64,000 nucleotides of DNA from Bacteroidales bacterium (GTDB taxonomy: Bacteria > Bacteroidota > Bacteroidia > Bacteroidales > GCA-2748055): NCBI GenBank assembly GCA_040880545.1, contig JBBDIE010000175.1, positions 6,569 to 70,568 on the forward strand. Reading direction: 5' to 3'. The translations under genes and the position numbers were made by a program. Positions 15,632-62,792 of this stretch are shown here, in pieces. Each line of letters opens with the position of its first letter. Position 1 is the first letter of the stretch. A model generated the notes under the pieces. It ran no database searches, was not told where the DNA came from, and was given only the letters and a program-made list of their open reading frames with translations.

Positions 15632-15671
15632 AAAGCAACGAAATTCAATATTTTCGTTGCTTTTCTTTTTT
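15632..15671. terminator. Bidirectional terminator between tRNA-Leu and the convergent fucP
   Basis: 12-bp stem aaagcaacgaaa (15632-15643) / tttcgttgcttt (15652-15663). T-run on the plus strand and a T-rich tail on the minus strand. Confidence 0.65.
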
Positions 15672-15713: not shown

Positions 15714-17015
15714 TTATCCTGATTTAGGATGAATTTTTAATGTCCTGTAACCGTAGACAGCTATCACGATAAAGCTGATTAATGGCAGGATAAAGGAGAA
15801 GTTGACGGCCGGCATAGATCCTACAGTCCCTAAATCAATGATAGCGCCCTGTAAAGGGGGCATCAATGCACCACCAACAATGGCCATAACGAGTCCGGCC
15901 GCTCCAATGGTAGCATCTTCACCCAGTCCTTCGAGCGCAATTCCATAAATTGTAGGAAACATAAGTGACATGAATGCCGAAGTTGCTACGAGCAGATATA
16001 AACCGATCATCCCCTGGATAAGAATCACCCCTGCTATGGTAATCATGCCTCCTATGGCAAATATGGTAAGTAGTAACCGCGCGTTCATATATCTCATCAG
16101 CATTGTACTGATAAACCGGCTAAAGAGGAAAATCACCATGGCCACAATGTTATAGTTTTGGGCCGTTGCTTTTGGAATTCCCAGGTTATCAGCATAATGA
16201 ATGATAAATGTCCAGCACATAATTTGTGCCCCGACATAAAAAACCTGTGCAATCACACCTTCACGATACCCCATGTTTTTTATGAGTCTTTTAAAAATAT
16301 CAGATGTTCTTATGGAGTGATCGGCTTCAGCCCTTTTGGGCATTTTTGAAAAGGCAATGATAACGAGCATTATAATAACTACAAGTCCTAAAATGACATA
16401 CGGATCACGTATAATAGCAAGATCGTGTGTTCGAATGACTGCCTTTTCAGCATCTCCCAGGGTGTTGAAAATTAAATTACCTGCTGTATCCCTTTTATCG
16501 GAATCAAGGGCTGAAAGGATGAAGTTGGAAGCCACAAACATTCCCAAGAGTGACCCTACGGGGTTAAATGATTGTGCCAGGTTTAGTCTACGTGTGGCTG
16601 TTTTAGGTGATCCCATGGACAAGATGTAAGGATTTGCAGTTGTTTCCAAAAAAGCCAGTCCAAAAGTAAGGATATAAAGTGAAACCAGGAAAAAGCCGAA
16701 AAATTCGAACTTTGCAGCCGGGAAGAACAACAAAGCTCCGATGGCGTACAGTAACAATCCCACTAGAATTCCTTTTTTATAACTGAATTTTTTGACAAAC
16801 AGTGCTGCCGGAATGGCCATTGTGGCATACCCGCCATAAAATGCAAACTGCACCATCGCAGCCTTAACATTCTTTATTTCCATCACAGTTTGAAATGCTG
16901 CAACCATTGGGTTGGTGATATCATTGGCAAAACCCCATAATGCAAATAAACAGGTAATAAGTATAAAGGGTAATAACATCTCTTTTGAAACCACAACTTT
17001 ATCAGGATCTTTCAT
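15714..17015 (-). CDS. fucP: L-fucose:H+ symporter permease (MFS)
   Basis: 433 aa, 12 predicted TM segments. The FucP-type N-terminus LPFILITCLFALWGFANDITNPMVAAFQ. Confidence 0.88.
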   Translation of the reverse strand: MKDPDKVVVSKEMLLPFILITCLFALWGFANDITNPMVAAFQTVMEIKNVKAAMVQFAFYGGYATMAIPAALFVKKFSYKKGILVGLLLYAIGALLFFPAAKFEFFGFFLVSLYILTFGLAFLETTANPYILSMGSPKTATRRLNLAQSFNPVGSLLGMFVASNFILSALDSDKRDTAGNLIFNTLGDAEKAVIRTHDLAIIRDPYVILGLVVIIMLVIIAFSKMPKRAEADHSIRTSDIFKRLIKNMGYREGVIAQVFYVGAQIMCWTFIIHYADNLGIPKATAQNYNIVAMVIFLFSRFISTMLMRYMNARLLLTIFAIGGMITIAGVILIQGMIGLYLLVATSAFMSLMFPTIYGIALEGLGEDATIGAAGLVMAIVGGALMPPLQGAIIDLGTVGSMPAVNFSFILPLISFIVIAVYGYRTLKIHPKSG

Positions 17016-17108
17016 GTTTACTATATTGATTATTTTTTAATGTAATGATAAAAATGCAATATTAATTTTGAATTTGTACCTTGCTATTACCTGCCGTGTG
17101 ATATAATA

Positions 17109-18188
17109 CTATAGATATTGATCCTTATTTGTCTTTTTTAAATATTCCACGATTTTTTTTACATCTTCAGCTCTTTCACGATGGCAAACCAGAGTTGTGT
17201 TCCCGTCCTGCACTACTACCACATCATCGAGGCCTACCAGTGCAACCAGACCATTTTCAGCATGAACATATGAATTCGAAGTATCCAGAAAAACTGCCTC
17301 CGAAGATGAATAATTTCCACTTTCATTTTTTTCGCTTACCTTGTATACCGACTCCCAACTTCCCAAATCATTCCAATCAAAATTTCCCTCTACCATATAG
17401 ATATTTTGGGCGTTTTCCATAATTCCGTAATCAATCGAGATGCTCTCAACTTTACGATAAATGCTATCCAGTGTATGTTCGTAACCAGGCTTACCCATTT
17501 CTGTCTGAATTTCTCGCAGACAGTAGTACAGGTCCGGGGCAAATTCCTTTACTGCATCCAGAATCACAGATACTTTAAAGACAAACATACCACTGTTCCA
17601 GTAAAAACCTCCCATTTCAAGGTAGGAGACTGCAGTTTCATAATCGGGTTTCTCAACAAATTGTTCTACGGTAAACTGCCTGATTTTTCTATTACCCGTA
17701 ATTTCATTGTTAATCTTTACAAATCCGTAGCCGGTTGCCGGGTAAGTCGGGGTAATTCCTATGGTAACGATCCCGTTTTGATTTTCAGCTAAATTTACCG
17801 CCTCTAATATTGTTTCACTGAATATCTCATTATTCTTTATAAGATGATCAGATGGAGATACGATCATGATCCCGTCCGGATTTTCCTTTTGAGTAAACAT
17901 GGCAGCCAGACCAATGCATGGCAGTGTGTTTTTTCCCACGGGTTCGTATATCAGGTTTTTTTGGGGAATCTCAGGAGTCTGTTCTTCCAGAATTTGTTTT
18001 TGGTTCAGACTGGAAACGATGTAAATGTTCTCTGTTTCCAAAAAATTTTGAAACCGACGAACTGTGGATTGTAATAAAGATTCGTTGCCAAAGAGGTTTA
18101 AAAACTGCTTGGGTTTGGCTTGTTTACTTCGTGGCCAGAAACGAGTGCCTGAGCCACCAGCCATTATAAGACTATAGATATTTTTCAT
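17109..18188 (-). CDS. manC: Mannose-1-phosphate guanylyltransferase (GDP-hexose pyrophosphorylase, RmlA/GlmU fold)
   Basis: MAGGSGTRFWPRSKQAKPKQFLNL, EPVGKNTLPCI, SPSDH, FVEKPD. 359 aa, no PMI domain. Confidence 0.85.
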   Translation of the reverse strand: MKNIYSLIMAGGSGTRFWPRSKQAKPKQFLNLFGNESLLQSTVRRFQNFLETENIYIVSSLNQKQILEEQTPEIPQKNLIYEPVGKNTLPCIGLAAMFTQKENPDGIMIVSPSDHLIKNNEIFSETILEAVNLAENQNGIVTIGITPTYPATGYGFVKINNEITGNRKIRQFTVEQFVEKPDYETAVSYLEMGGFYWNSGMFVFKVSVILDAVKEFAPDLYYCLREIQTEMGKPGYEHTLDSIYRKVESISIDYGIMENAQNIYMVEGNFDWNDLGSWESVYKVSEKNESGNYSSSEAVFLDTSNSYVHAENGLVALVGLDDVVVVQDGNTTLVCHRERAEDVKKIVEYLKKTNKDQYL

Positions 18189-18260
18189 ATTTATGGGTTG
18201 AATCTGTTTCCCCGGGAATTAAATGATTGTGGAAAATTATAATGAAGAAAATCGGTTGGA

Positions 18261-19826
18261 CTATTTTAATTCAATTTTAAAGACAGTAGCCATCTCATCT
18301 ATAGATTCGTCAGTTGTAACAAGTTGTAATCCAGCATCTATAAGTTTATATTCAACTTTATTATGGCTCCCAAGCAATGTTACATTTTTTATGGCACGGT
18401 GGCTTGCCCATTCATCCTTGGAAAATGCAGTTAAAAGTATCTCGGAATTGGCCTTAGGGCTACCCAGAAGAATGGAATAAATTACATTCTCTTTCGTAGT
18501 ATACCGTATGTCTTTTGCTGAATATTTTATCTTCAGAAATTCCTCCCGATTGCTAAAATGACCCTCTGGTTCCTTGGTTGGTCCTTCGCCATAGGTATAC
18601 CATGGACGGGTTTCATATATAGATTCACCGTATTTATCCAGCCATTCCCCCATGGTTAGTAAAACATTTTGCTGCTCCTCGGGTATGGTACCGTCGGATT
18701 TTGGAGAAATATTAAGTAATAGTACTCCGTTTTTACTAACAATGTCGATTAAAACATGCAAGACATCCTCAGCCGGTTTAATTTGCAGATTTTCTGTATA
18801 ACACCAGCTTCCGGAACTGACAGTTTCGTCGGTCATCCATGCCTTTTCTTCAAGTCGATTTTTACGTGATTTCTCCAGGTCATCAACACTTACATCAAGC
18901 GGTAAATCATCTTGTTTCCTGACAATTACAACCTCTTTTCCCAACTTTTCTGCTTCATTCAGGTAATAGGCACAAAATTTAAGTTGGTACTCTTCTGGAA
19001 TCTGATCCAGCCAGGAATCAAACCAAATAATGTCAGGCTGATATTTATCAATCACCTCCTTCAATTTTCCGAACCATATATCTTCCAGCCATTCATTCTC
19101 AGGGATATTCCCATAAAGGTAATTCAGTTCTTCGTCATTGAGCGACGGTGGCATCCCTTCAAACAACGGATAATGACTATTCTGAAATGCTTTGCGCATG
19201 GGCCTGTCTATATCTGAGTGGAGCTTTTCGATTTCCTCTTGCTCTATTCCTTGATAGCGTTGCAGTTGTTTAGCATGGTGAAATGTTGTGATGAATTTTA
19301 ATCCCTGATCTCTGAACGCTTTTTCCATCTCGCCGGTAATATCACGCTGTGGGCCTTTTTTTCCTGCATTCCACGGCGTAACATCGCTGTCCCACATTGC
19401 AAAGCCATCGTGGTGTTCGGCAACCGGACCGGCAAAGCGGGCACCTGCTTTTTTAAATAGGGAGCTCCATTCTTCTGCATCAAATTCTTCTGCTGTGAAC
19501 ATCGGGACAAAATCATGATATCCAAATTCAGATGGGTGTCCATATTTTTCAAGGTGATGGACGTATTCATCAGTTCCTTCGAAATGCATCCAGCGGGGAT
19601 ACCATTCAGTGCCGAAAGCCGGGACCGAGTATACCCCCCAATGAAAATAGATTCCCAGTTTAGCATCCTTAAACCAACCGGGCTCTTCATTATGTTTTGC
19701 AAGTGATTCCCATGATTCCTCGTATTCGACTTGATTTTCTTGTTCATTAGAAGCTTTATTGCCTGAAATTCCACAACCAGTGAATGCGATCATTAATAGC
19801 AGGAGGCCCAAGGTTTTTATTTTCAT
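18261..19826 (-). CDS. Alpha-L-fucosidase, GH29 (lipoprotein)
   Basis: MKIKTLGLLLLMIAFTGC lipobox (ATG = cat at 19824-19826). WFKDAKLGIYFHWGVYSVPAFGTEWYPRWM, GPVAEHHDGFAMWDS, PDIIWFDSW (nucleophile Asp region). Confidence 0.9.
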   Translation of the reverse strand: MKIKTLGLLLLMIAFTGCGISGNKASNEQENQVEYEESWESLAKHNEEPGWFKDAKLGIYFHWGVYSVPAFGTEWYPRWMHFEGTDEYVHHLEKYGHPSEFGYHDFVPMFTAEEFDAEEWSSLFKKAGARFAGPVAEHHDGFAMWDSDVTPWNAGKKGPQRDITGEMEKAFRDQGLKFITTFHHAKQLQRYQGIEQEEIEKLHSDIDRPMRKAFQNSHYPLFEGMPPSLNDEELNYLYGNIPENEWLEDIWFGKLKEVIDKYQPDIIWFDSWLDQIPEEYQLKFCAYYLNEAEKLGKEVVIVRKQDDLPLDVSVDDLEKSRKNRLEEKAWMTDETVSSGSWCYTENLQIKPAEDVLHVLIDIVSKNGVLLLNISPKSDGTIPEEQQNVLLTMGEWLDKYGESIYETRPWYTYGEGPTKEPEGHFSNREEFLKIKYSAKDIRYTTKENVIYSILLGSPKANSEILLTAFSKDEWASHRAIKNVTLLGSHNKVEYKLIDAGLQLVTTDESIDEMATVFKIELK

Positions 19827-20088
19827 CAGTTTGATATTAGTTACTGAGTGCTTGCAAGAAAATGTCAATAGCTGCGTTATGCTCGACTTCAAAACAGTCA
19901 TCGCAATCCCCTGTTAAAGAACTGGGCAGCCATTGCTCTTGACGTTTTCTTATCAAATACTACATCGTTTTATGAGTTTTCTTTCTAACACTACTTGTAA
20001 GTTTCAGTTAAATAATAAACTCTGTATTAAAACACTTATAAATCAATGCCATATTATTCTTTGTACAATGATGCCACCTTTGGCAATC

Positions 20089-20442
20089 TCATTTGTCTTC
20101 AAGTTTATAAATTCGTTCCATTAATTGCCACTTGTTTCCCGCTGTTGTGCCAGGTGATGTTTTCTGAAATCGTGCAACATAATCTTCCCACTCACTCTGC
20201 CTGGGTTTTAAGGCTAGCTCAGCCATTGCTTTATCATGATCAAAATCATTAACTGTTTCCATGATCATAAATAACCTGTTTCCGTGAATATATATCTCCA
20301 TGTCTGTTATACCCACTTCACGCATTCCCTGGGTTATATCGGGCCATGCCGCTCTAGGAGCATGGACCTTTATATATTCTCTTATAGTAGGGGGATCATC
20401 TTCTAAATCAAGTGTTTTGCAATATCTTTTGAATGTCGTCAT
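20089..20442 (-). CDS. L-rhamnose mutarotase (RhaM) family protein, probable L-6-deoxyhexose/L-hexose mutarotase
   Basis: 117 aa ferredoxin-like dimeric alpha/beta-barrel pattern. EYIKVHA..WPDI...MREVGITDMEIY..GNRLFMIME resembles RhaM. Confidence 0.75.
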   Translation of the reverse strand: MTTFKRYCKTLDLEDDPPTIREYIKVHAPRAAWPDITQGMREVGITDMEIYIHGNRLFMIMETVNDFDHDKAMAELALKPRQSEWEDYVARFQKTSPGTTAGNKWQLMERIYKLEDK

Positions 20443-20476
20443 ATCTTTTTAAAAAGTAGAAGTTAGTTTGGAACGA

Positions 20477-21613
20477 TTAATACCTGACTTTCACTTTAAT
20501 GGTACCTTCAATTTTGTCTGATGAAGGAAATACTATATAACCCCCACCACTACCAGAGGTAATCGCACCAGAATATTTTGTAAAATAATTTGTTTTCACT
20601 TCTTCCATTACCCAGTCAGGAACTGTATATGGCAACATTTCACTCCATGCCAGGAATGACTCTTTCATTGATTCACCTAGTTTTTGAACATCTTTTTTTA
20701 ATATGGCTTCGTAACATTTTTTCCCAGATTCCCCCAATTTTTTGATCAATGCCGGTTCCAGGTTTTTTTTCAGTAAAGGATTATATCCTTTGGGACGTGG
20801 TTGCAACGGAACAAAATTCAAAACTTCAGAAAGCCACTCACACGTATCCGGGTCGGCAGTGTTTTCAATATTTCCGGGCCAGAAATCACCAACATAATCC
20901 AGTCTTGAAATTCCCGGCACCATGAGTCCTATATGATCCTGTGAACCTGAGATATATTCAGATCCCGGAGGATTTTCAGCGCCAAAAAGCAATTGGGCAT
21001 TTCGTATCGGATCTCCTTCCGGAACATCCCCTCCCCACAATTCATAGGCAACTTTTCGGGAACTGGACGCCATGCCAGATCGGCCGTTAAAGTCAATGTT
21101 TGGCCATATCTGAGCTACAACGACAGATCCAGGATGTATTTGAGAAATCCAGGGTTGATCCAGCCAGCCACCTGCCAGACATACCCGATAGGGGAATTGA
21201 AGTTCTTGCTTGGATGCAGAACTGGAACGTGGAGGTAAACCTTCTTCAGGCATTCGTTCTAAAACAACCAGTTCCACACCGTTTTCTTTGCAGACCCTCT
21301 TTTTATCCGGCGTATATCCATCGGTATTTACTACGAAGATATCAGGTTTCAGCGATTTCATATCGGGTTCAAAATCCATTACCCCTTTTCCTGATGCAAG
21401 ATGGGCTTCCTCCACGAATTTGATGGAATCGATCATATACTTGCGCTCTACCTGTGAAAAATAGGGAGATTTGCCCTTCAGCATTTTCACATTTTCGTCC
21501 TGTCCAAGAAAAACATGGAGTTTACCATAGCTCGCCGCTGTCTTTAGAAAGGCTATGTGTCCTGCATGTATTAAGTCGAAACAGCCGCTAACCATTACAG
21601 TTTTGTTTCTCAT
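20477..21613 (-). CDS. Fusion protein: HxGH cytidylyl/adenylyl-type nucleotidyltransferase (N-terminal) plus GHMP-family sugar kinase-like domain (C-terminal)
   Basis: N-terminal VSGCFDLIHAGHIAFL (HxGH, as in TagD/RfaE domain II) and PPRSSSASK (RTxGISTT-like). C-terminal LAGGWLDQPW, GRSGMASSS (GHMP motif II-like), GSQDHIG (GxQDQ-like in fucokinase/HddA kinases) and SGSGGGYIVF (motif III-like). Confidence 0.65.
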   Translation of the reverse strand: MRNKTVMVSGCFDLIHAGHIAFLKTAASYGKLHVFLGQDENVKMLKGKSPYFSQVERKYMIDSIKFVEEAHLASGKGVMDFEPDMKSLKPDIFVVNTDGYTPDKKRVCKENGVELVVLERMPEEGLPPRSSSASKQELQFPYRVCLAGGWLDQPWISQIHPGSVVVAQIWPNIDFNGRSGMASSSRKVAYELWGGDVPEGDPIRNAQLLFGAENPPGSEYISGSQDHIGLMVPGISRLDYVGDFWPGNIENTADPDTCEWLSEVLNFVPLQPRPKGYNPLLKKNLEPALIKKLGESGKKCYEAILKKDVQKLGESMKESFLAWSEMLPYTVPDWVMEEVKTNYFTKYSGAITSGSGGGYIVFPSSDKIEGTIKVKVRY

Positions 21614-21705
21614 GTACTACTCATTTTTGGTCAATGATTTTTAACATACAATTTGATTAAAAACCTGGCCTTGAAACCTTGGGTCAATTTGATGAATCAA
21701 GTGGG

Positions 21706-22695
21706 TCAACTAACTAAGCTTTTTTCTTCTTTTGATATCATTTGTTCCTTGATCCAATCGTATGTTTTTTTCATCCCGTCTTTTAAAGGATATATTGGCG
21801 CCCAATTTAAATATTTCTTAATCAGGGTATTTTCGCTGTTTCTGCCACGTACACCTTTCGGCGCATCCAAATCATAAGTTCGCTTAAGTTTGAATCCTGC
21901 GATATCTTCAACGATATCCACCAGTTCATTAATGGAAACCATTTCATCACTTCCCAGGTTGATTGGTTCTTCGATGTCGCTTTCCATTATTTTCAAGATA
22001 CCTTCAACACATTCATCGATATACATGAACGAACGGGTCTGTTCCCCGTCTCCCCATATTATGATTTCATCTTTTCCATACAATTCCCCTTCAATAATTT
22101 TACGGCACATTGCTGCAGGAGCCTTTTCACGACCGCCATCGTACGTTCCATGAGGACCGTAAACATTATGGAAACGGGCAACCCTGGTTGCTAATCCATA
22201 ATCTTCCATATAGTGACGGCACATTCGTTCGGAAAATAATTTTTCCCAACCATATCCGTCCTCTGCCATAGCAGGATATGCATCTGGTTCTTTTAATCCC
22301 GGATTGTTGGGGTCGGTTTGTTTCTCTGCGTTGTATACACAGGCTGATGAAGCATAAAAAAATCGCGTCACCCCCAGATCTTTAGCAGCCATTAACATGT
22401 GTGTATTTATAAGTACACTCAACATACACTCCGCTTTATGCGTTTCAATAAAGCCCATACCACCCATATCAGCCGCCAGATTATAAACTTCATTGTAACC
22501 ATTTACGGCTGTATAACAATTTTCTTTGACATTCAGGTCAAGCACAAGATTATCACAGCCGGAGTGAACCTGGTACCATTCAGTAAGCGGTTTTTTGTCC
22601 ACAGCACGAACGTGATGCCCCATATCGCTTAGTTTTCGAGCCAGATGCCCGGCTATAAAGCCACCCGCACCTGTTACAACAATTCTTTTTTGCAT
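21706..22695 (-). CDS. gme: GDP-mannose 3,5-epimerase homologue (extended SDR)
   Basis: Collinear similarity to plant GME as I recall it: VTGAGGFIAGH, NLAADMGGMGFI, RFFYASSACVY, YGWEKL, RFHNVYGP.GT..GGREKAPAA.CRK, WGDG.QTRSF.YIDECVEG, GSDEMVSINE, GVRGRNS.N.LIK..L.WAP. Confidence 0.85.
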   Translation of the reverse strand: MQKRIVVTGAGGFIAGHLARKLSDMGHHVRAVDKKPLTEWYQVHSGCDNLVLDLNVKENCYTAVNGYNEVYNLAADMGGMGFIETHKAECMLSVLINTHMLMAAKDLGVTRFFYASSACVYNAEKQTDPNNPGLKEPDAYPAMAEDGYGWEKLFSERMCRHYMEDYGLATRVARFHNVYGPHGTYDGGREKAPAAMCRKIIEGELYGKDEIIIWGDGEQTRSFMYIDECVEGILKIMESDIEEPINLGSDEMVSINELVDIVEDIAGFKLKRTYDLDAPKGVRGRNSENTLIKKYLNWAPIYPLKDGMKKTYDWIKEQMISKEEKSLVS

Positions 22696-22871: not shown

Positions 22872-25124
22872 CTACTCTTCAACGGTAAATCGCCAGATTT
22901 TTCCTTTGATTTTTTTTGTTCCCTGGATTACGTCCACCCGCCAAAAGTACGTTTCACAAAAATTCAGTTGATCCATTTCCAGAATATTGGAATCAAGGAC
23001 TCCCTGGTATTCATTACTTACGGGACTCGCTTCATTAACCGCTTTGTAACTATTTCCAAAGTACACTTCATGGCTGTCAGCTTTATATCCTTCTAACCAC
23101 ATTAAATCAGCATCTATATCAATTGAAATGGCTACGTTTGGTGGTATCGGATTAGAAGCTTGTTGTGATTGTCGTCCAGGAATCCAGTAATGTCCATTAT
23201 TAGTTTCGTATGGACCGATATCTGGTAAAACATTCCCTGTTTTTCCTGTAATTCCATCTATATAATAGCCTGCATCGTTTAATCTACTCTCTGTGGATAA
23301 TCGGAAATCCAGATTATCAGGATCACGGAGCTGCGACCTTACGTCACCGGTCCAGTTATTGGAATGTTTGCCGGGTAATCCATTTGAAGGGGATCTCAAA
23401 TTACTGGATATTTGGCCTGCCAGGTTATTCCTGGTAATACTGTTATCATTTTCTCCCGGATGATCAATTCCCGGCCCCCATCCCTGGTAATTAAAACCTT
23501 TCAGTGGATCTTTCGGGACCGGGTTTCCAACTGCAGAACGTATGGCTATATCATTCCTTAAATTGTCAAAGGAAAGATTGTGATACACTAACTGAGAATC
23601 TCCCTTTACATACATGGACCTGGTATCCCATACTACATTGTGGTGAATTGTACCTCCATGGGGAAAATCCCTGGCGCCTGCCAGGTATCCGATAAAAGAT
23701 CCGTCGAAACGTACCCCGTATTTCGGATCATCATCAAAACGACTAGCCTGGGCTGATTCATGTAACCAATTATATCTGATTACGGTTCCCGGTTGCGCCG
23801 ATCCACTGACCTGAATAAGCGCTCCATCTGATTGCAGGTACCCAATATCGAAAATATTATTATATTCTATCAGGTTTGCGGGACCGGATCTGTATCCAAC
23901 AGAGGCCCCTCCGGTATGGATCGTATTCCTACGAAATATAGTTTCGACCCCTTCTCCTCCATCTACAGTTACAGCATCTCCAACACAGCTGTAATTGATC
24001 TCATGGAAATAGCAATTTTCTATCAGGTTTCTTTCCCCCCTGATTTTCAGTCCTGTTCCATCGGTGTATGCAAACGTACAGTTCCGGAGTGTATTCTCTA
24101 TACCATCAATGGTTGTAACTTCTGGTTCCTCAGTAACCCCAAGCATTCTTTTGGAATAGCTCGGGTATTTAAAATCACAATCCTCTATGGAAACATGATT
24201 TGCGCTTTCGATATGAAATGTTGACCCAAAAAAGTGTAATCCTGATATTTTGAGATATTCGCTGTTTTCAAAATGCAGAGCATAAGTCAGTGTTTTGCCT
24301 CTGATATCCAGGTTTTCCGGCGATTCGTTATCAGATGGCCATATGTATAACTCCTTTGAGTCAGCCTGATACACCCATTCTGTGGCAGTATCCAACATGT
24401 TAAGGGAACCCTCAAAAAAGTACCATCCTGTCTCTTTTCTCATTTCCCAATAGACATCCTGTGCCAATCGATCCCAAAGATTTTTCTCATATGTAAATGT
24501 ATTGGATCCTTTCTTGTGACTGGTTACTCTTGTCGCAAAGGTATTCCATGCACCAATATTTAACATAACCAAAGCGTTGGTGAAGTCAACATCCGCTTGA
24601 GCCAGATCTCTGAAATCATGGTCATTGACCATTTTCCCATATTGCGATTGATCAGATTGATGGGCCCATGTTTTTTCCTGATCAAACATTGCCCCGTCCT
24701 TCCACTGTGCATTTGGCCAGCGGGCCGATATCATTGATTCGTTACCAACAAACAACTGCCAGATTTCATCGTTAAGACGAGTCTTAACGATATGTCCCTT
24801 ATGGGAATTCCAAACGCTTTTAATTTCCTTAGTACCATCAAGAATGACATGCTCATTATTAAAAGGGAGTATCGTAATTTGTTTATTTTCCAGACCTTTA
24901 AGATTCGAAATATGTACAGCTTCATGATATCTTCCTCCTCGCAGGTAACAAGTATCTCCTGCTTTTAATTGCTTCACAGCATGTTGGATCGTTTTAAATG
25001 GTTGCTCCAAACTTCCGGAGCCAGAATCGTCACCATTGGGGGCTACGTAATATTCCTTGCTATACAAATCGCTGGTGCCAACCAATATGATGCAGAGTAA
25101 AATAATTGAATACGACCTGGTCAT
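22872..25124 (-). CDS. Secreted right-handed parallel beta-helix protein (pectate-lyase-fold glycan-degrading enzyme candidate) with a C-terminal ~90-aa beta-sandwich-like domain
   Basis: Signal peptide. DUF1565-like start YYVAPNGDDSGSGSLEQPFKTIQHAVKQLKAGDTCYLRGGRY. Repeated beta-helix coils (NCTF..., NCYFH..., RNTIH...). C-terminal ...SHEVYFGNSYKAVNEA...TYFWRVDV...WRFTV. ATG at 25124 chosen. Confidence 0.7.
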   Translation of the reverse strand: MTRSYSIILLCIILVGTSDLYSKEYYVAPNGDDSGSGSLEQPFKTIQHAVKQLKAGDTCYLRGGRYHEAVHISNLKGLENKQITILPFNNEHVILDGTKEIKSVWNSHKGHIVKTRLNDEIWQLFVGNESMISARWPNAQWKDGAMFDQEKTWAHQSDQSQYGKMVNDHDFRDLAQADVDFTNALVMLNIGAWNTFATRVTSHKKGSNTFTYEKNLWDRLAQDVYWEMRKETGWYFFEGSLNMLDTATEWVYQADSKELYIWPSDNESPENLDIRGKTLTYALHFENSEYLKISGLHFFGSTFHIESANHVSIEDCDFKYPSYSKRMLGVTEEPEVTTIDGIENTLRNCTFAYTDGTGLKIRGERNLIENCYFHEINYSCVGDAVTVDGGEGVETIFRRNTIHTGGASVGYRSGPANLIEYNNIFDIGYLQSDGALIQVSGSAQPGTVIRYNWLHESAQASRFDDDPKYGVRFDGSFIGYLAGARDFPHGGTIHHNVVWDTRSMYVKGDSQLVYHNLSFDNLRNDIAIRSAVGNPVPKDPLKGFNYQGWGPGIDHPGENDNSITRNNLAGQISSNLRSPSNGLPGKHSNNWTGDVRSQLRDPDNLDFRLSTESRLNDAGYYIDGITGKTGNVLPDIGPYETNNGHYWIPGRQSQQASNPIPPNVAISIDIDADLMWLEGYKADSHEVYFGNSYKAVNEASPVSNEYQGVLDSNILEMDQLNFCETYFWRVDVIQGTKKIKGKIWRFTVEE

Positions 25125-25382
25125 AATTATATTTTTATTTGGTTTTATGCTAAAATTCAGACAACAGAACTCTAATTGAACTTTTTGGTTCATTTGCATT
25201 CCAAGGCTTTCCTGAATATTACATTGCGATAATTTAATCGCTGTGTAACTTAGAATTTTACTATTTTAAAATAAGAACTACCAAACACATTGATTGGAAT
25301 TTTCCGAGGGCTCAGCAGTTCTGATGTTAACTTGATTCGTTATATATTAATTGTCAATTTTTCTGAGAATAGATGGATATTG

Positions 25383-26909
25383 TTATTTCAGAATTAACTT
25401 TTGCGTTTCAGAATAACCTTCCCCCTTCATTCTCATGAGGTACATTCCATTTTCTAGATGTGTCAAATCTATTGTCTCTTTAAAGTAGTCGTTTGCCTGA
25501 AATTCTCTTGAGAGTATCTGGGCACCGGTGATACTAAATACTTCTAATCGTAATGTACCGATTTCATTTCCTGCGTATTCAATTGTTAAAATGCCCTGAC
25601 TGGGATTTGGATAAACTTGGGGTATAATTGAATGTGACAGCGGTATACTTGAAGTTCCTGTAAGTTGCCAACGTTGATCACCTAATTGAAGACCATCAGT
25701 GGCTGCTGTGGCAGATCTTAAATTCCTATCATATCCAAAATCAATATCGTTCAGGTCTTCCAATGCGTATTGATTTGGCGGAGACAGGGCTGCAATATCA
25801 AAATTGTTCTCAACCAGATACTGCCAGTATTCAAGATTAAGTGCCGGCGGACTGGTAAAATTAATTGCTTCACTAAAAAAATTAGTAGTATCAACCTGGG
25901 AATTTTCAATAAAAGCAAGGAAATTGGGAGGGGTCTCAGGATTGGCAGCAAGTACATCAGGGTCGGCGAAAATATTGGTACGTATATTGTACATTTCGTC
26001 AGATCTGAATTCTAACAATACATCTGAAATATCAGATTGTGTATGCCAATTATTGTTACTCAGATCGAAAGACCTCAGATTGTCATCCACCCCAATTGAA
26101 TCAACTGTAAAGAGCACATCGTGACTACCCGCCACTGCCAGGTATGCAAAATTATAGAATATATTATTTGTTACAATAGCCTTAACAGTCATTCCCAAAT
26201 CAAAATAGACATCATTTAAATAATTGGATTGATAATATGTATTGTGACTGAAGTTAAGCACATTTGTAACACTTGCCATTCTTAGGAAAAGCGGTCCGTC
26301 ACAATTATAAAAAGTAGTATTTTCAATGGATAAAGTATCCTGCGGCCTGGCAAGTGTATTGATGATGGAAGGAAAGCCCGGGTCCTCAAATACCAGACCA
26401 TTAATAAAAACTGAATTTGTCACATAAACTTTACTGCCATTACTTGTACGAATAAAGTCCTTTCCAACAAATTCGAAAACACAATCATCGACATTTAATC
26501 TCAGATCATTGTCTGCGAGCCGGATAGCTTGTACCAAAACGGTTGAATCCAGCGCTTTTTGATTAAACTTCAGTCCTTCCACTACTAGGTGTCCCGTTAC
26601 TTCGAAGTGTCTTTTGTAACTGTCATCTATGCCTACAATTACAGGCCGTGCACCATCTCCTTGCTCTGCCCTGATATGGAGCGTATTATCCAGGGAAGAA
26701 ATCTTATTGTTCAATACATAAGTACCTCCTCTTCGTAACTCAAAGATGGTGTTACCAGGATTATCTTCACTGTCAATAGCTATGTTAAGCGCACCTGCCT
26801 CACCTTCCAGATCCGGTTCTACAACTATTACCGTTTTTTGCCCAAAGGCTGGCAGGCACATTAAAAACAGTCCCATTGTTAAAAGCATGTAAATTTTTTT
26901 CATAATCAT
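25383..26909 (-). CDS. T9SS-sorted secreted protein with a beta-helix-like body
   Basis: Signal peptide MKKIYMLLTMGLFLMCLPAFGQ. C-terminal VYPNPSQGILTIEY...LEVFSITGAQIL...IDLTHLENGMYLMRMKGEGYSETQKLILK matches the type A Por/T9SS sorting domain pattern. Confidence 0.75.
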   Translation of the reverse strand: MIMKKIYMLLTMGLFLMCLPAFGQKTVIVVEPDLEGEAGALNIAIDSEDNPGNTIFELRRGGTYVLNNKISSLDNTLHIRAEQGDGARPVIVGIDDSYKRHFEVTGHLVVEGLKFNQKALDSTVLVQAIRLADNDLRLNVDDCVFEFVGKDFIRTSNGSKVYVTNSVFINGLVFEDPGFPSIINTLARPQDTLSIENTTFYNCDGPLFLRMASVTNVLNFSHNTYYQSNYLNDVYFDLGMTVKAIVTNNIFYNFAYLAVAGSHDVLFTVDSIGVDDNLRSFDLSNNNWHTQSDISDVLLEFRSDEMYNIRTNIFADPDVLAANPETPPNFLAFIENSQVDTTNFFSEAINFTSPPALNLEYWQYLVENNFDIAALSPPNQYALEDLNDIDFGYDRNLRSATAATDGLQLGDQRWQLTGTSSIPLSHSIIPQVYPNPSQGILTIEYAGNEIGTLRLEVFSITGAQILSREFQANDYFKETIDLTHLENGMYLMRMKGEGYSETQKLILK

Positions 26910-30534: not shown

Positions 30535-31836
30535 TCAAAACACAAAATCTAAACTTATTCCTGCAGTATCCAACTGGCTCTTGATGGTTTTTGTCTGCCC
30601 CATGGCAGTAACTGTGATATCATAATCACCTAAAAATCCACGTAGATTATACTTTCCATTTGCATCAGTTTCTCCGGCAAGATCGGTCCACCATTGGTTA
30701 AAAACAAGGTCCAACCATGCCTCACCTGCCGGTTTAATGGTCCAGTCTGAATTCCAAAGCGTTGTATTGTTGGCACCTCCTCCCCAGATTTGCCACATGA
30801 CAATACCAGAAACAGCGGGGTGACTATAAGCAATGGTCATCACATCGTGCAAATATTCAGCTTGAAGCTGCTGATCAGCAACATTTATATCAAATTCGGT
30901 TAGCTGAAGGTTAGGCACCAGTTCCGCAAATCTGTCCAGCCTTTCATAAATTTTATCCATACTGATAAGATCGCTCTCTTGTTTAAAATGACTCATGAAA
31001 CCAATACCATCCGGTGTACCACCATATTCAAGAAGCTTTCTGATTTGTGCTATATACTTGTCCTGGCGCGATCCATCACCCGGTAAAATACTGCCTTCGT
31101 TTACCCAAAATTCCACACCGGGAGGAGCATGTTCACGGGCATGTTTGATAACGTCTGCGAAAAATGATGGACCAAAAAGGTGGTCGTAGCCCAGATGGTC
31201 AGATATATCAGTTACAATGTGATTGATAGCATCCCATTCTGAAATACGATTTCCCGCCCAGGTTACCATCTCCTCAATATACTGGAAGGCGATCTCTTTT
31301 AGCTCATTTGTGTCCGCAGGCATTACATCTGGCTGTCCACGTCTGTCCTCATCTTCAATCTGAATGCGAGCCCACATTAAATAGTGGCCACGAACTTCAA
31401 TTCCCCGTTCTTTCAACCAGTCGAGCTGAATATCTCCCACCTCGTTGTTATGGGCTCCAACAACTAGTTTGTTGAAATATTTCTCCACAAGTTCCCGGCA
31501 AAGACGGGCATCTTCAGGATTAGGTTTATCTTCCCATCTTGACTGACCCATCAATGCACCAAAACCAAAAGCATGTTTAGACATCTTTACCGCAACTTCA
31601 GCATCAGGCACAGGTTCTCCTGAAATATCTGAAACAGTAATTTTTATGTCTGATTTGCGATGTATCTCAATTCTCTCTTTTGCAGATTTTAACCATTCCG
31701 GATCATTGTCAACCATATTGGTGGTGTCGTTTTTGATAGTGTCGTTGGCAACGATGGGCTCTTTGAGAGTAGGAGGAGTGGTCTTTTCACAGGACACCAT
31801 CGCTAAAGAGACCATTGCCATGATAATATAATTCAT
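30535..31836 (-). CDS. GH10-like (beta/alpha)8 glycoside hydrolase-fold lipoprotein, atypical active site, paralogue A
   Basis: Lipobox (AMVSC). GH10 landmarks in order: HAFGFG, VRGHYLMW, WDAINH (in place of WDVVNE), WVNEG, GIGFMSHF, LQLTEFDI (nucleophile motif), IVMWQIW. C-terminal Ig-like tail. Confidence 0.7.
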   Translation of the reverse strand: MNYIIMAMVSLAMVSCEKTTPPTLKEPIVANDTIKNDTTNMVDNDPEWLKSAKERIEIHRKSDIKITVSDISGEPVPDAEVAVKMSKHAFGFGALMGQSRWEDKPNPEDARLCRELVEKYFNKLVVGAHNNEVGDIQLDWLKERGIEVRGHYLMWARIQIEDEDRRGQPDVMPADTNELKEIAFQYIEEMVTWAGNRISEWDAINHIVTDISDHLGYDHLFGPSFFADVIKHAREHAPPGVEFWVNEGSILPGDGSRQDKYIAQIRKLLEYGGTPDGIGFMSHFKQESDLISMDKIYERLDRFAELVPNLQLTEFDINVADQQLQAEYLHDVMTIAYSHPAVSGIVMWQIWGGGANNTTLWNSDWTIKPAGEAWLDLVFNQWWTDLAGETDANGKYNLRGFLGDYDITVTAMGQTKTIKSQLDTAGISLDFVF

Positions 31837-31900: not shown

Positions 31901-33199
31901 TTAAAACACAATATTTAAACTGGTCCCTTCGGGAAGAAGGTTACAATTCATCGTTTTAATTTCATTTTCCACTTGTATATGGATTTCATAATCACCTAAA
32001 AACCCACGTGCTTCAAATTGTCCTTCATTATTTGTTATTCCAGTCTCTTCTGTCCACCATTTATTATGAACCAGGTCTATCCAGGCTTCGCCTGCCGGTT
32101 TAATTGTCCAGTCTGAATTCCAGAGGACTCTATTATGTCCTTCAGATCCCCATATTTGCCAGACAGTAATTGAAGTTACAGCAGGATGGCTGAAAGCAAT
32201 ATTCATAACATCATGCAAGTATGATGCATGTAATTTTTCATCTTCAACATCTATATCTAATTCTGTTAATTGCAGATTAGGGACCAGTTCGGCAAATTTA
32301 TCCAACCGCTGATAAACTACCTCCATGCTAATCAGGTCATCCTCACCCTTGAAGTGGGACATGAACCCAATGCCGTCCGGCTTGGCGTTATATTTGACGA
32401 GGTTTTCAATTACTTCGTAATATAATTGTAACCTTTTTCCTTCACCCGGTAGAACCCCACCTTCATTTATCCACATCTCAACTTCAGGAGGGGCAAGCTC
32501 TCTGGCGAATTTAATTATATCAGCAAAAAATTCCTCCCCAAACAGGTGATCATATCCTACATGGTCGGAAACATTTGTAACGATATGATTGATTAAATTC
32601 CATTCAGTGATCCGATTATCGGCCCAGGTAATCATATCTTCGATACGTTGAAATGCCATTTTTCGCAGCTCTTCCTCATCATCAGGCCATTCATCAGGTT
32701 GGCCATACCGATTGCCAGGCTGAATACGTGCCCACATAAGATAATGACCCCGAACCTTTATGTTTCGCTCATTTAACCAATTTAATCCGAATTCGCTTAC
32801 GGGGTCATTCTCTCTTATAGCGGCTACTTTGTTAAAATAGGTTTCTACGATTTCTAAATGTTTCTGGGCATCCGTTGGATTTGGCTGGCCTTCAAATCTA
32901 CTGGTTCCTAACAATGATCCAAATTCAAAAGCATGCCGAATCATTTTTACCTCAACTTCTGCACCTTCAATTGGCTTTCCATTGTTATCCACAACATGAA
33001 TGGAAAGATCTGCTTTACGATGCAGTTCAATTCTCTCTTTTGCTGACTTCAGCCAGGCTGGATCGTCATTTATAGTACTGATTGTATCATTGTTTACTGA
33101 ATCATTACTGACTAGAGGTTGTTTCTCAACAGGAAGGGGTTCCTTTTCACAGGAGGCCATCGTAATAACTGTCAATGCAATTAAAATATAATTAATCAT
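31901..33199 (-). CDS. GH10-like (beta/alpha)8 glycoside hydrolase-fold lipoprotein, atypical active site, paralogue B
   Basis: Same architecture as paralogue A and clearly homologous along its whole length. HAFEFG, VRGHYLMW, WNLINH, WINEG, GIGFMSHF, LQLTELDI, ITVWQIW. Confidence 0.7.
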   Translation of the reverse strand: MINYILIALTVITMASCEKEPLPVEKQPLVSNDSVNNDTISTINDDPAWLKSAKERIELHRKADLSIHVVDNNGKPIEGAEVEVKMIRHAFEFGSLLGTSRFEGQPNPTDAQKHLEIVETYFNKVAAIRENDPVSEFGLNWLNERNIKVRGHYLMWARIQPGNRYGQPDEWPDDEEELRKMAFQRIEDMITWADNRITEWNLINHIVTNVSDHVGYDHLFGEEFFADIIKFARELAPPEVEMWINEGGVLPGEGKRLQLYYEVIENLVKYNAKPDGIGFMSHFKGEDDLISMEVVYQRLDKFAELVPNLQLTELDIDVEDEKLHASYLHDVMNIAFSHPAVTSITVWQIWGSEGHNRVLWNSDWTIKPAGEAWIDLVHNKWWTEETGITNNEGQFEARGFLGDYEIHIQVENEIKTMNCNLLPEGTSLNIVF

Positions 33200-54141: not shown

Positions 54142-54151
54142 AGCTCAACAA

Positions 54152-57250: not shown

Positions 57251-57298
57251 TGGAAATTTTTTACAAAAACCATACTTATTCCTGAATCAATTAAAGTT

Positions 57299-58963: not shown

Positions 58964-58981
58964 TTTTTTTCAGTTTGGTAG

Positions 58982-62580: not shown

Positions 62581-62761
62581 AGAGGATAACTATAATTATA
62601 AGTTGATTTTTTCACTTTTTTTATTAAAATCTTCAAGCGATTCAAAATTTATATTTTATTTGGAAGATCTATTTATTTGTCCGTCAGATTTTCATAAGAT
62701 GACTCCACTTGCCAATACGGGAATTCTTTGTTATACCTGCAAGGTCATATCTAAAAATTAC

Positions 62762-62769: not shown

Positions 62770-62792
62770 TTGAGAACTTATGGATTAGCTAT

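What the first reader, a model, noticed from the sequence alone, without database searches (positions are those of the whole stretch)
20477..21613. Unusual fusion of an HxGH nucleotidyltransferase with a GHMP-type sugar kinase
Residues ~1-135 carry the GCFDLIHAGH motif of the cytidylyl/adenylyltransferase superfamily (TagD, RfaE domain II).

Residues ~140-378 carry GHMP-kinase-like motifs: GRSGMASSS, GSQDHIG and SGSGGGYIVF. These are reminiscent of fucokinase/HddA-type anomeric or heptose kinases.

Known bifunctional kinase/nucleotidyltransferases use other combinations:
- RfaE: ribokinase-fold kinase + HxGH transferase, in the opposite order
- Bacteroides Fkp: RmlA-fold pyrophosphorylase + GHMP fucokinase

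This domain combination and order therefore looks like a third solution to 'kinase + NDP-sugar synthase in one chain'. Both the sugar and the nucleotide specificity are unknown. A separate RmlA-fold GDP-hexose pyrophosphorylase (ManC) in the same operon makes the role of the HxGH domain especially unclear.
Basis: partly seen in the sequence, partly recalled or inferred. Interest (0 to 1): 0.7.

Follow-up and report, generated by a model that had tools for sequence, protein, structure and literature searches.

The report
Compact sugar kinase–nucleotidyltransferase fusion enzyme
This gene encodes a real, widespread but biochemically untested two-in-one enzyme that probably turns an imported L-sugar (L-galactose or L-fucose) into its GDP-activated form, and its conserved neighbours suggest an undescribed route that feeds L-galactose into ordinary mannose metabolism.

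Summary
Residues 1-135 are an HxGH cytidylyltransferase-like domain. Residues ~139-378 are a minimal GHMP kinase of the fucokinase/HddA branch; this shows only by family profile (Fkp, E 1.5e-15) and fold (TM 0.70), not by single-sequence Pfam.

The architecture is not rare. It occurs in at least 576 species genomes across many phyla, named only 'adenylyltransferase/cytidyltransferase family protein'. It is not entirely new either: a June 2026 paper proposed, from genetics alone, that the distant relative Akkermansia Amuc_1591 is a 'fucose-nucleotidyltransferase'. No member has been assayed.

The context is new. The window protein belongs to a distinct clade with a bona fide GDP-mannose 3,5-epimerase directly upstream in 11 of 12 loci. 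In Prolixibacteraceae six genes recur as one unit, under a LacI regulator where the flank is visible: epimerase, fusion, ManC, FucP-type permease, RhaM-type mutarotase, GH29.

I infer a Leloir-like route: L-galactose, L-Gal-1-P, GDP-L-Gal, GDP-mannose, mannose-1-P. This would explain the 'redundant' ManC. Sugar, nucleotide and flux direction are all unproven. A purely biosynthetic GDP-L-Gal/GDP-L-Fuc salvage role remains a serious rival.

The parts
21209..21613 (-). N-terminal HxGH (cytidylyltransferase-like) nucleotidyltransferase domain, residues 1-135. HxGH at residues 16-19; RSSS(ASK) signature at 129-135.
   Evidence: PF01467 E 8.5e-13. TIGR00125 46.9 bits against cut-off 27.7. PDB sequence hits ECT 3elb, TagD 2b7l/1coz, 3glv, Fom1 CyTase 5x3d. 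Foldseek TagD/HldC/Fom1 TM 0.72-0.85 of target. Both motifs conserved across divergent fused members.
20480..21199 (-). C-terminal minimal GHMP anomeric-sugar kinase module (residues 139-378) of the fucokinase/HddA branch. Motif I is PYRVCLAGGWLDQP (141-154), motif II RSGMASS (178-184), catalytic SGSQD (222-226), motif III GSGGGY (354-359).
   Evidence: Profile A3 against PDB: Fkp 9iip E 1.5e-15, 3k85 1.9e-11, WcbL 4usk ~5e-8, mevalonate kinase 1e-6. 21 of 63 relatives reach PF08544. Domain model pLDDT 89. Its top 50 Foldseek hits are all GHMP enzymes, WcbL TMq 0.70, Fkp 0.58-0.67.
20477..21613 (-). Whole fusion gene (378 aa + stop).
21706..22695 (-). GDP-mannose 3,5-epimerase (GME) homologue, 92 bp upstream of the fusion.
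   Evidence: PDB 8sg0/2c59 E 1e-103, 350 bits. All fingerprint residues S143, C145, Y174, K178, N203, K217, R243, R306 conserved (one search read against PMC8787198). Adjacent in 11 of 12 loci of the window's clade.
20089..20442 (-). RhaM-family sugar mutarotase, 34 bp downstream of the fusion.
   Evidence: PF05336 E 1.5e-27. Recurs in the unit in L002, L006, L081-L083. A RhaM+HxGH+kinase triple fusion exists (P0130).
18261..19901 (-). GH29 exo-alpha-L-fucosidase/alpha-L-galactosidase.
   Evidence: PF01120 E 4e-100. Closest solved structure is BpGH29 exo-alpha-L-galactosidase 7snk/7ljj/7lnp, 349-354 bits, against 290 for the next entry (7SNK = BpGH29 per PMC12316285).
17109..18188 (-). ManC-type mannose-1-phosphate guanylyltransferase (no PMI domain).
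   Evidence: PF00483 + PF22640. TIGR01479 330 bits over positions 1-352. Conserved in the unit in L002, L081, L082, L083.
15714..17015 (-). FucP-type L-fucose/L-galactose:H+ symporter, last gene of the unit.
   Evidence: TIGR00885 594 bits against cut-off 280.
15632..15663 (-). Terminator-like hairpin (12 pairs + T tail) about 50 bp after FucP; probable end of the transcription unit.
   Evidence: The total number of terminator-like sites is not above the shuffle expectation, so only its position argues for it.

Best explanation
The gene encodes a bifunctional salvage enzyme for L-galacto-configured sugars. The C-terminal minimal GHMP kinase phosphorylates the anomeric hydroxyl of the beta-L-sugar with ATP. 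The N-terminal HxGH domain then couples the beta-L-sugar-1-phosphate to GTP, releasing pyrophosphate and giving the GDP-sugar.

In the window's clade the preferred sugar is most likely L-galactose, and the enzyme is the entry point of a six-gene unit that is LacI-controlled in close relatives. A GH29 enzyme releases the alpha-L-sugar from a sulfated glycan. The FucP-type permease imports it. The RhaM-type mutarotase supplies the beta-anomer. The fusion makes GDP-beta-L-galactose. GME epimerises that to GDP-alpha-D-mannose. ManC, running in the pyrophosphorolysis direction, yields mannose-1-phosphate plus GTP.

GTP and pyrophosphate are thus recycled between the two transferases. The net reaction is L-galactose + ATP giving mannose-1-phosphate + ADP, a pyrophosphorylase-type (Isselbacher-like) analogue of the Leloir pathway.

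Shown here: both domain identities, conservation of catalytic and sugar-binding residues, the GME identity and the conserved gene unit. Inferred: every enzymatic activity, the sugar, the nucleotide and the direction of flux.

Rough confidences: kinase + nucleotidyltransferase acting on an L-Fuc/L-Gal-type sugar, 0.75. GDP as the nucleotide, 0.6. The full catabolic funnel to mannose-1-phosphate, about 0.45-0.5.
For: Domains.

Fucose-1-P contacts of Fkp (R592, W599, D601, T602, Q761 and the general base D762; PMC11982464) align with R143, W150, D152, Q153, Q225 and D226 (alignment). These residues are conserved in both clades. Fkp itself accepts L-Fuc, L-Gal and D-Ara.

Genetics on the distant homologue Amuc_1591: D-arabinose-resistance mutations map to it and L-fucose rescues growth. 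Homology is shown.

GDP link: a bona fide GME lies directly upstream in 11 of 12 loci of the window's clade. Gmd lies directly downstream in 8 loci of the sister clade. A Gmd+kinase fusion protein exists (P0226).

Catabolic design: the same six genes recur in L002 and L082-L083 (L081 has five of them, with an unrelated 551-aa protein instead of GH29), and a divergent LacI regulator flanks the unit in L002 and L081-L083. Neighbours of the clade are GH29 (8), GH95 (3), LacI (5) and MFS (5), with no glycosyltransferase family in the top 25. In the window the unit closes a ~40-kb SusC/D + sulfatase + GH29 locus with no glycosyltransferase among the genes scanned.

L-galactose hint: the operon's GH29 is closest to the solved exo-alpha-L-galactosidase BpGH29.

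Divergence from the fucose-type clade: L010 carries one paralogue of each clade flanking one GME. There are 31 clade-discriminating positions, including C145, which is Asp in 100% of the sister clade.

The GME equilibrium is described as unfavourable towards GDP-L-Gal (PMC8787198), so the GDP-L-Gal to GDP-Man direction is downhill.
Against: No activity has been measured for any family member.

The HxGH fold is known with ATP or CTP, not GTP (my knowledge of the families). The closest profiles are adenylyl- and cytidylyltransferases, so GDP rests only on context.

Sugar preference cannot be read from the pocket, because Fkp's C6 pocket makes no specific contacts.

The GH29 evidence is weak: the two other GH29s compared also score 305-326 bits against BpGH29.

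ManC is inside the unit only in the window and in L002 and L081-L083 (Prolixibacteraceae), not in the other clade members.

In L010 the module abuts LPS-core genes (LpxK, HldE, HAD phosphatase, GT9), and bacterial GME has been linked to LPS synthesis. Both favour a biosynthetic reading at least there.

No phosphomannomutase or mannose-6-P isomerase lies in the unit. L-galactose is a rare sugar for so widespread a module.
Confidence: 0.5

Rival explanations
1. Pure L-fucose salvage for glycan synthesis, a compact analogue of Fkp. The enzyme makes GDP-L-fucose from scavenged fucose to decorate LPS, capsule or glycoproteins, as proposed for Amuc_1591. On this reading the adjacent GME and ManC serve an unrelated or merely co-regulated purpose.
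For: All fucose-1-P contact residues are conserved. The sister clade sits with Gmd/Fcl-like genes, FucI, FucK, FucP, RmlA and WecB/C. Akkermansia genetics point to fucose. The window locus has three GH29 'fucosidases' and many sulfatases, as expected for fucoidan-like substrates. FucP matches the L-fucose permease equivalog at 594 bits.
Against: It does not explain why GME, whose only known substrates are GDP-Man, GDP-L-Gal and GDP-L-Gul, is directly upstream in 11 of 12 loci of this clade but rarely in the fucose-type clade. It does not explain why ManC travels in the unit in Prolixibacteraceae. It does not explain why L010 keeps one paralogue of each clade side by side. No fucose catabolic genes or fucosyltransferases are in the window.
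Confidence: 0.2
2. A biosynthetic GDP-L-galactose supply module. ManC + GME make GDP-L-Gal de novo and the fusion adds a salvage branch, just as Gmd/Fcl + Fkp do for GDP-fucose. The product is consumed by L-galactosyltransferases encoded elsewhere.
For: This is the same logic as the Gmd-adjacent sister clade. L010 has LPS-core genes immediately downstream. The review links bacterial GME to LPS synthesis. GT+kinase-module fusion proteins exist (P0137, P0168).
Against: No glycosyltransferase is near the unit in the window or among the top neighbour families of the clade. The unit is under a LacI-type regulator with a permease and an exo-glycosidase, which is typical of substrate-induced catabolism. 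De novo and salvage branches in one inducible operon would be redundant, whereas all six genes fit one linear catabolic path.
Confidence: 0.2
3. The HxGH domain does not make a GDP-sugar. It either uses CTP or ATP to give a CDP- or ADP-L-sugar with an unknown fate, or it is a non-catalytic or regulatory domain and the protein is only a kinase.
For: Nearest characterised relatives are cytidylyl- and adenylyltransferases. The kinase module also exists alone as ~240-aa proteins, so it can function without the transferase.
Against: HxGH and the RSST-type motif are conserved in both clades of fused members down to about 35% identity, which argues for catalysis. The conserved partners (GME, Gmd, ManC) are all GDP-sugar enzymes. 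No CDP- or ADP-fucose/galactose-using enzyme is known (my knowledge).
Confidence: 0.1

Closest known systems
Amuc_1591 of Akkermansia muciniphila ('fucose-nucleotidyltransferase'; Lakey et al., Gut Microbes 2026, PMC13313206)
   Same: Same two-domain layout: HxGH transferase, linker, fucokinase-like GHMP module. Homologous over both domains (hhalign probability 99.9%, E 2.8e-32, 321 columns; BLASTP 34% identity over residues 4-184). Same database name. No enzymology for either.
   Different: Distant: the kinase half is barely alignable pairwise. Amuc_1591 sits next to murJ and is proposed to feed LPS fucosylation. The window protein belongs to a separate clade tied to GME, ManC, a permease, a mutarotase and GH29 inside a polysaccharide utilisation locus.
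[quoted passage not shown]
   Same: Best PDB match of the kinase module (E 1.5e-15). Sugar-binding and catalytic residues are conserved. Same domain order (transferase N-terminal, kinase C-terminal). Same presumed two-step chemistry. Fkp accepts L-Gal and D-Ara as well as L-Fuc.
   Different: Fkp is 949 aa, with an alpha/beta + beta-helix pyrophosphorylase domain. Here the transferase is an unrelated 135-aa HxGH domain, the kinase is trimmed to ~240 aa and the whole protein is 378 aa.
HldE/RfaE and HldC (ADP-heptose synthesis)
   Same: The only characterised case of an HxGH domain acting on a sugar-1-phosphate, and also fused to a kinase. The N-domain hits rfaE_dom_II at E 9.6e-14 and HldC by fold.
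   Different: HldE's kinase has the ribokinase/PfkB fold and is N-terminal. Its nucleotide is ATP and its sugar a heptose. The window scores 51 bits against a cut-off of 181.5, so it is not a member.
HddA/WcbL-type GHMP heptose kinases (PDB 3k85, 4usk, 4n3o)
   Same: Closest fold matches of the kinase module (TMq 0.70 for WcbL) and significant profile hits.
   Different: These are stand-alone enzymes of ~340 aa acting on heptose-7-phosphate. Their partner transferase HddC is RmlA-like.
[quoted passage not shown]
   Same: The logic is anomeric kinase, then nucleotidyl transfer, then epimerisation of the NDP-sugar, then release of a common hexose-1-phosphate. The same GME reaction is used as in plants.
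   Different: It uses GDP instead of UDP, a 3,5-epimerase instead of a 4-epimerase and two pyrophosphorylases instead of a uridylyltransferase. It runs opposite to the plant direction. It is not described for any organism in the library searched.

Membership tests
Cytidylyltransferase-like HxGH nucleotidyltransferases (Pfam PF01467) | Profile match above the curated threshold | tested here: met
   49.1 bits against cut-off 21, residues 8-131. TIGR00125 46.9 against 27.7.
Cytidylyltransferase-like HxGH nucleotidyltransferases (Pfam PF01467) | HxGH motif and second RTxGISTT/RSST-type signature | tested here: met
   H16-A-G-H19 and R129-S-S-S132. H16, G18, H19, R129 and S130 are conserved in both clades. 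Positions 131-132 are SS in the window's clade and TT in the sister clade.
Cytidylyltransferase-like HxGH nucleotidyltransferases (Pfam PF01467) | Rossmann-like nucleotidyltransferase fold | tested here: met
   Foldseek against TagD 2b7l TMt 0.85, Fom1 CyTase 0.79, HldC 0.72.
GHMP kinase superfamily | Pfam GHMP_kinases_N/C match by the protein itself | tested here: not met
   No Pfam hit for residues 136-378 even at E<=10. However, 21 of 63 divergent relatives reach PF08544 (best E 3.7e-07).
GHMP kinase superfamily | Significant profile-level homology to solved GHMP kinases | tested here: met
   Profile A3: Fkp 1.5e-15, 3k85 1.9e-11, 4n3o 4.5e-08, WcbL 4.9e-08, mevalonate kinase 9.5e-07.
GHMP kinase superfamily | GHMP fold | tested here: met
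   Domain model pLDDT 89, pTM 0.89. The top 50 Foldseek hits are all GHMP enzymes, TMq up to 0.70. The module is about 100 residues shorter than typical members.
GHMP kinase superfamily | Motifs II (phosphate loop) and III (GxGGGG), catalytic Asp and Arg | tested here: met
   RSGMASS 178-184; GSGGGY 354-359; D226 = Fkp D762; R143 = Fkp R592.
GHMP kinase superfamily | ATP-dependent kinase activity | not testable with these tools
   Needs an enzyme assay.
Fkp (L-fucokinase/GDP-fucose pyrophosphorylase) | Fucokinase-type sugar pocket (R592, W599, D601, Q761, D762) | tested here: met
   R143, W150, D152, Q225, D226.
Fkp (L-fucokinase/GDP-fucose pyrophosphorylase) | N-terminal alpha/beta + beta-helix GDP-fucose pyrophosphorylase domain | tested here: not met
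   The N-terminal domain is PF01467, with no NTP_transferase or Fucokinase-family hit. It is therefore not a member of Fkp, only a functional analogue.
HldE/RfaE | PfkB/ribokinase-fold kinase + HxGH adenylyltransferase, equivalog score | tested here: not met
   rfaE_dom_II 51.4 bits against 181.5; HldE 38.5 against 521; no PfkB domain.
Amuc_1591-type HxGH+GHMP fusion ('fucose-nucleotidyltransferase') | Same two-domain architecture with homology over both domains | tested here: met
   hhalign 99.9%, 321 columns; BLASTP E 5e-24.
Amuc_1591-type HxGH+GHMP fusion ('fucose-nucleotidyltransferase') | Same substrate (L-fucose) and biosynthetic role | tested here: inconclusive
   The window protein lies in a separate clade with different conserved neighbours and 31 discriminating positions. 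The substrate is unmeasured for both.
[quoted passage not shown] | Catalytic fingerprint S143/Y174/K178, C145/K217, N203, R243, R306 | tested here: met
   All are conserved in the alignment to 2c59 (residues per PMC8787198); 350 bits.
Leloir/Isselbacher-type NDP-sugar catabolic pathway | Kinase, sugar-1-P nucleotidyltransferase, NDP-sugar epimerase and a second pyrophosphorylase encoded together with a transporter | tested here: met
   Window 15714-22695; the same genes recur in L002 and L081-L083.
Leloir/Isselbacher-type NDP-sugar catabolic pathway | Net flux from free sugar to hexose-1-phosphate | not testable with these tools
   Needs genetics, labelling or reconstitution.

The most novel reading that the evidence does not exclude
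Marine and sediment Bacteroidota catabolise L-galactose, released from sulfated algal or animal glycans, by a GDP-sugar-based Leloir-like pathway not described in the literature I could search. The entry enzyme would be the first HxGH-fold sugar-1-phosphate guanylyltransferase, fused to a minimal GHMP L-galactokinase. GME would run 'backwards' relative to plants and ManC would run in pyrophosphorolysis, so that GTP and PPi cycle and only one ATP is spent per sugar.
Probability: 0.4. Interest if true: 0.8.

Novelty: new variant of a known kind. Interest (0 to 1): 0.62.

Why it matters
Thousands of database proteins with this layout carry only the name 'adenylyltransferase/cytidyltransferase family protein', so their kinase half is invisible to annotation. 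Showing that they are one-chain sugar activators of 378 aa (Fkp is 949 aa) would correct that. It would also give glyco-engineers a much smaller catalyst for GDP-L-fucose, GDP-L-galactose or GDP-D-arabinose synthesis.

If the GME-linked clade really funnels L-galactose into mannose metabolism, it answers a question that the porphyran and GH29 papers I read leave open: what bacteria do with the L-galactose released by exo-alpha-L-galactosidases. It would also add a GDP-based counterpart to the Leloir pathway and a catabolic role for GDP-mannose 3,5-epimerase, an enzyme otherwise known from vitamin C and glycan biosynthesis.

Tried and rejected
1. Single-sequence searches of the C-terminal half against Pfam, NCBIfam and the PDB gave nothing, even at E<=10. 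The GHMP link needed a family profile.

2. The first attempt to fetch related loci with a 26-sequence alignment failed for lack of conserved stretches. A narrower 8-sequence alignment worked.

3. I tried to reach Amuc_1591 through a search seeded with a Verrucomicrobial homologue. No Akkermansia entry was among the top 120. The sequence came from the paper's supplement instead.

4. I tried to infer L-Fuc versus L-Gal preference from pocket residues and rejected the approach. Fkp's C6 pocket makes no specific contacts, and no model coordinates were available to map the clade-specific residues.

5. I tested GH29 as a discriminator. The operon's GH29 is closest to BpGH29 L-galactosidase, but the two other GH29s compared also score 305-326 bits against it, so this is only weak support.

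6. I considered L-fucose as the substrate of the GME route and rejected it. Epimerising GDP-L-fucose would give GDP-D-rhamnose, and ManC reversal would give a 6-deoxy-hexose-1-phosphate with no known onward path (inference from the chemistry).

7. The sigma-70 promoter scan was uninformative: 26 sites against 23 expected, and Bacteroidota promoters differ in any case.

8. The 551-aa protein that replaces GH29 in Maribellus YY47 is unrelated to GH29 and has no Pfam hit.

9. Literature searches found no described GDP-L-galactose-mediated catabolism and no biochemical characterisation of this fusion.
Full report
OBSERVATION. The stated coordinates hold one ORF, but on the minus strand: ATG at 21613, stop at 20477-20479, 378 aa. 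The start agrees with more than 100 full-length homologues that begin at the same methionine.

N-TERMINAL DOMAIN. Residues 8-131 match Pfam CTP_transf_like (E 8.5e-13, 49 bits against cut-off 21). They also match the generic NCBIfam domain TIGR00125. They fall far below the equivalog thresholds of RfaE domain II (51 against 181.5), TagD (40 against 165) and HldE. The nearest solved sequences are ethanolamine-phosphate cytidylyltransferase, TagD, a Thermoplasma RfaE-like protein and the Fom1 cytidylyltransferase domain. The AlphaFold model superposes on TagD, Fom1 and HldC at TM 0.72-0.85 of the target. The HxGH motif (16-19) and the second signature (RSSS, 129-132; RSTT in the sister clade) are conserved in both clades of fused members, down to about 35% identity. 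It is therefore a distinct, probably catalytic, subfamily of the HxGH transferases. Homology does not reveal its nucleotide.

C-TERMINAL DOMAIN. On its own, the C-terminal half matches nothing in Pfam, NCBIfam or the PDB. An exhaustive search found 527 clusters at 50% identity containing this module. It occurs alone (about 240 aa), behind an HxGH domain (about 375-390 aa, the commonest form) and in longer fusions.

- 21 of 63 divergent members reach Pfam GHMP_kinases_C.
- A profile of 28 module sequences hits the fucokinase domain of Bacteroides Fkp (E 1.5e-15), HddA/WcbL-type heptose kinases (1.9e-11 to about 7e-08) and mevalonate kinases (about 1e-06).
- A domain-only model (pLDDT 89, pTM 0.89) returns only GHMP enzymes among its top 50 fold matches: WcbL TMq 0.70, Fkp 0.58-0.67, galactokinases 0.59-0.64.

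The residues that bind fucose-1-phosphate in the Fkp crystal structure are R592, W599, D601, T602 and Q761, with D762 as general base (PMC11982464). They align with R143, W150, D152, Q153, Q225 and D226, and these are conserved throughout the family. The module is a trimmed GHMP kinase, about 100 residues shorter than usual.

HOW COMMON, AND IS IT KNOWN. The architecture is abundant. Thousands of database proteins are named only 'adenylyltransferase/cytidyltransferase family protein'.

One paper describes it. Lakey et al. (Gut Microbes, June 2026, PMC13313206) found that D-arabinose-resistant suppressors of Akkermansia muciniphila all map to Amuc_1591. They modelled it as an adenylyl/cytidylyltransferase domain plus a fucokinase-like domain and called it a 'previously uncharacterized fucose-nucleotidyltransferase'. 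They gave no enzymology and did not identify the nucleotide. Using the sequence in their supplement, I find it homologous to the window protein over both domains, but distant: hhalign 99.9%, E 2.8e-32, 321 columns; BLASTP 34% identity over residues 4-184. A 2025 phylogenetic study of FKP enzymes does not mention this type.

CONTEXT IN THE WINDOW. The gene lies in a co-directional string with gaps of 34-187 bp:
- GDP-mannose 3,5-epimerase (21706-22695)
- the fusion
- a RhaM-type mutarotase (20089-20442)
- GH29 (18261-19901)
- ManC (17109-18188)
- a FucP-type permease (15714-17015)

A hairpin follows at 15663-15632. The epimerase is a strong GME homologue (E 1e-103 to the plant enzymes). It has every fingerprint residue of the family: S143, C145, Y174, K178, N203, K217, R243 and R306.

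Upstream, on the same strand, is a ~40-kb polysaccharide utilisation locus. It has two SusC/SusD pairs, eight or nine sulfatases, two more GH29s, two beta-helix proteins and two GH10-like proteins, with a LacI regulator at its head. The genes I scanned include no glycosyltransferase and no FucI/FucK/FucA.

CONTEXT ELSEWHERE. A neighbour-joining tree of the fusion proteins from 76 loci splits them in two.

The window protein falls in a monophyletic clade with L001-L006 and L008-L012, at 55-76% identity. In this clade GME is directly upstream in 11 of 12 loci, GH29 is nearby in 9 and FucP in 5. Other neighbours are LacI regulators, MFS permeases, GH95 and GFO/IDH/MocA oxidoreductases. No glycosyltransferase family is among the 25 commonest.

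In three named relatives the genes form a compact operon facing a divergent LacI gene, in the order GME, fusion, ManC, MFS/FucP, RhaM, GH29. These are a 5.3-Mb Draconibacterium contig, Prolixibacteraceae Z1-6 and the isolate Maribellus sp. YY47. In YY47 the GH29 is missing and an unrelated 551-aa protein follows the fusion. L002 has the same set.

The large sister clade (40-46% identity) instead lies next to Gmd (8 loci, directly downstream), L-fucose isomerase and L-fuculokinase (4 loci each), FucP, or RmlA/WecB/WecC.

One Sedimentisphaerales locus (L010) has a sister-clade paralogue, GME, a window-clade paralogue and FucP in a row. This argues that the two clades differ in specificity. Thirty-one positions discriminate them, in both domains. 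Examples are C145 (Asp in 100% of the sister clade and in Fkp), W323 (Gln in 100%), N205 (Leu) and the residues preceding motif III.

Rare longer proteins join the kinase module to RhaM + HxGH, to a complete Gmd, or to glycosyltransferases. Each is a single representative and may be a gene-calling artefact. If real, they point to the same partners.

MECHANISM. The chemistry follows from the two domains and from Fkp. A retaining GH29 releases the alpha-L-sugar. The mutarotase supplies the beta-anomer that a fucokinase-type enzyme phosphorylates. The HxGH domain converts the beta-L-sugar-1-phosphate to an NDP-sugar. This is inference from established family knowledge.

The nucleotide is most simply GDP, because every conserved partner (GME, Gmd, ManC) is a GDP-sugar enzyme.

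For the window's clade, L-galactose is the only known substrate that connects an L-galacto-specific kinase/transferase to GME. GDP-L-Gal would be epimerised to GDP-Man. ManC, run in reverse with the pyrophosphate released by the HxGH step, would give mannose-1-phosphate and regenerate GTP.

Other points are compatible but not decisive:
- The GME equilibrium is reported as unfavourable towards GDP-L-Gal.
- The operon's GH29 is closest to the solved exo-alpha-L-galactosidase BpGH29.
- Fkp accepts L-Gal.

L-fucose cannot use this route, because its product would be a 6-deoxy-hexose-1-phosphate.

WEAKNESSES. Nothing has been assayed.
- GTP use by an HxGH sugar-phosphate transferase has no precedent that I know of.
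- The C6 pocket of Fkp is non-specific, so the sugar preference rests on context alone.
- The two other GH29s compared resemble BpGH29 almost as much.
- ManC is inside the unit only in the window and in L002 and L081-L083 (Prolixibacteraceae).
- L010 is followed by LPS-core genes, and bacterial GME has been linked to LPS. A biosynthetic GDP-L-Gal or GDP-L-Fuc supply role is therefore a live alternative.

My estimates: kinase + transferase on an L-Fuc/L-Gal-type sugar about 0.75; GDP about 0.6; the full catabolic funnel about 0.45-0.5.

NOVELTY AND VERDICT. But the architecture is common, and the literature has already flagged it, on genetics only, as a fucose-activating enzyme. What is new here:
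- the demonstration at family scale that it is a compact analogue of Fkp
- the split into a fucose-type clade and a GME-linked clade
- the conserved six-gene unit, which suggests a GDP-based Leloir-like route for L-galactose; I could not find such a route described

I class it as a new variant of a known kind, of moderate to high interest. It is directly testable in cultured Maribellus or Draconibacterium strains.

Noticed in passing
window 22872-63818: The finding sits at the 3' end of a ~40-kb minus-strand polysaccharide utilisation locus. It has two SusC/SusD pairs (52243-61987), eight or nine S1 sulfatases, three GH29s in total and a LacI regulator at 62709-63818 (+). This probably targets a sulfated fucan or L-galactan.
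   Followed up: partly
window 22872-25199 and 49982-52168: Two large secreted proteins (775 and 728 aa) have only a generic right-handed beta-helix hit (PF13229). They are candidates for uncharacterised endo-acting enzymes on the sulfated substrate.
   Followed up: no
window 30535-31836 and 31901-33199: Tandem paralogues (433 and 432 aa), probably lipoproteins, with a weak GH10 match for the one I scanned (30535-31836; 90 bits). A GH10-like enzyme is unexpected in a sulfatase/GH29 locus.
   Followed up: no
window 34810-35625; 42660-43748; 45354-46700; 25383-26909: Odd accessory genes in the locus: an RraA-like 'aldolase' with what looks by eye like an N-terminal signal peptide, an Sde182 nucleoside-hydrolase-like protein, a purple-acid-phosphatase-like metallophosphoesterase, and a 508-aa protein whose only recognised part is a T9SS sorting tail.
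   Followed up: no
L010:4150-14199: A Sedimentisphaerales MAG has a sister-clade paralogue, GME, a window-clade paralogue and FucP in a row. These are followed by LpxK, HldE, a HAD phosphatase and a GT9 heptosyltransferase, so two fusion paralogues sit beside LPS-core genes.
   Followed up: partly
proteins P0130, P0226, P0137, P0168, P0148, P0122: Longer variants of the kinase module: RhaM+HxGH+kinase, Gmd+kinase, GT2+kinase, DXD-glycosyltransferase+kinase, PNP_UDP_1+HxGH+kinase, and double HxGH+kinase. They may be true Rosetta-stone fusions or gene-calling artefacts.
   Followed up: partly
L081:11165-12820: In Maribellus sp. YY47 the operon carries a 551-aa secreted protein with no Pfam hit and no similarity to GH29, while the GH29 found in relatives is absent. 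It could be an unrecognised glycosidase.
   Followed up: partly
L008:6335-7723: The one locus of the window's clade without an adjacent GME has a GH27-like alpha-galactosidase (Melibiase_2) directly upstream of the fusion instead.
   Followed up: no
window 20480-21208 and ~240-aa relatives (P0127, P0140-P0143 and others): The kinase module also exists as a stand-alone ~240-aa protein in many lineages. This would be an unusually small GHMP kinase and is itself uncharacterised.
   Followed up: partly
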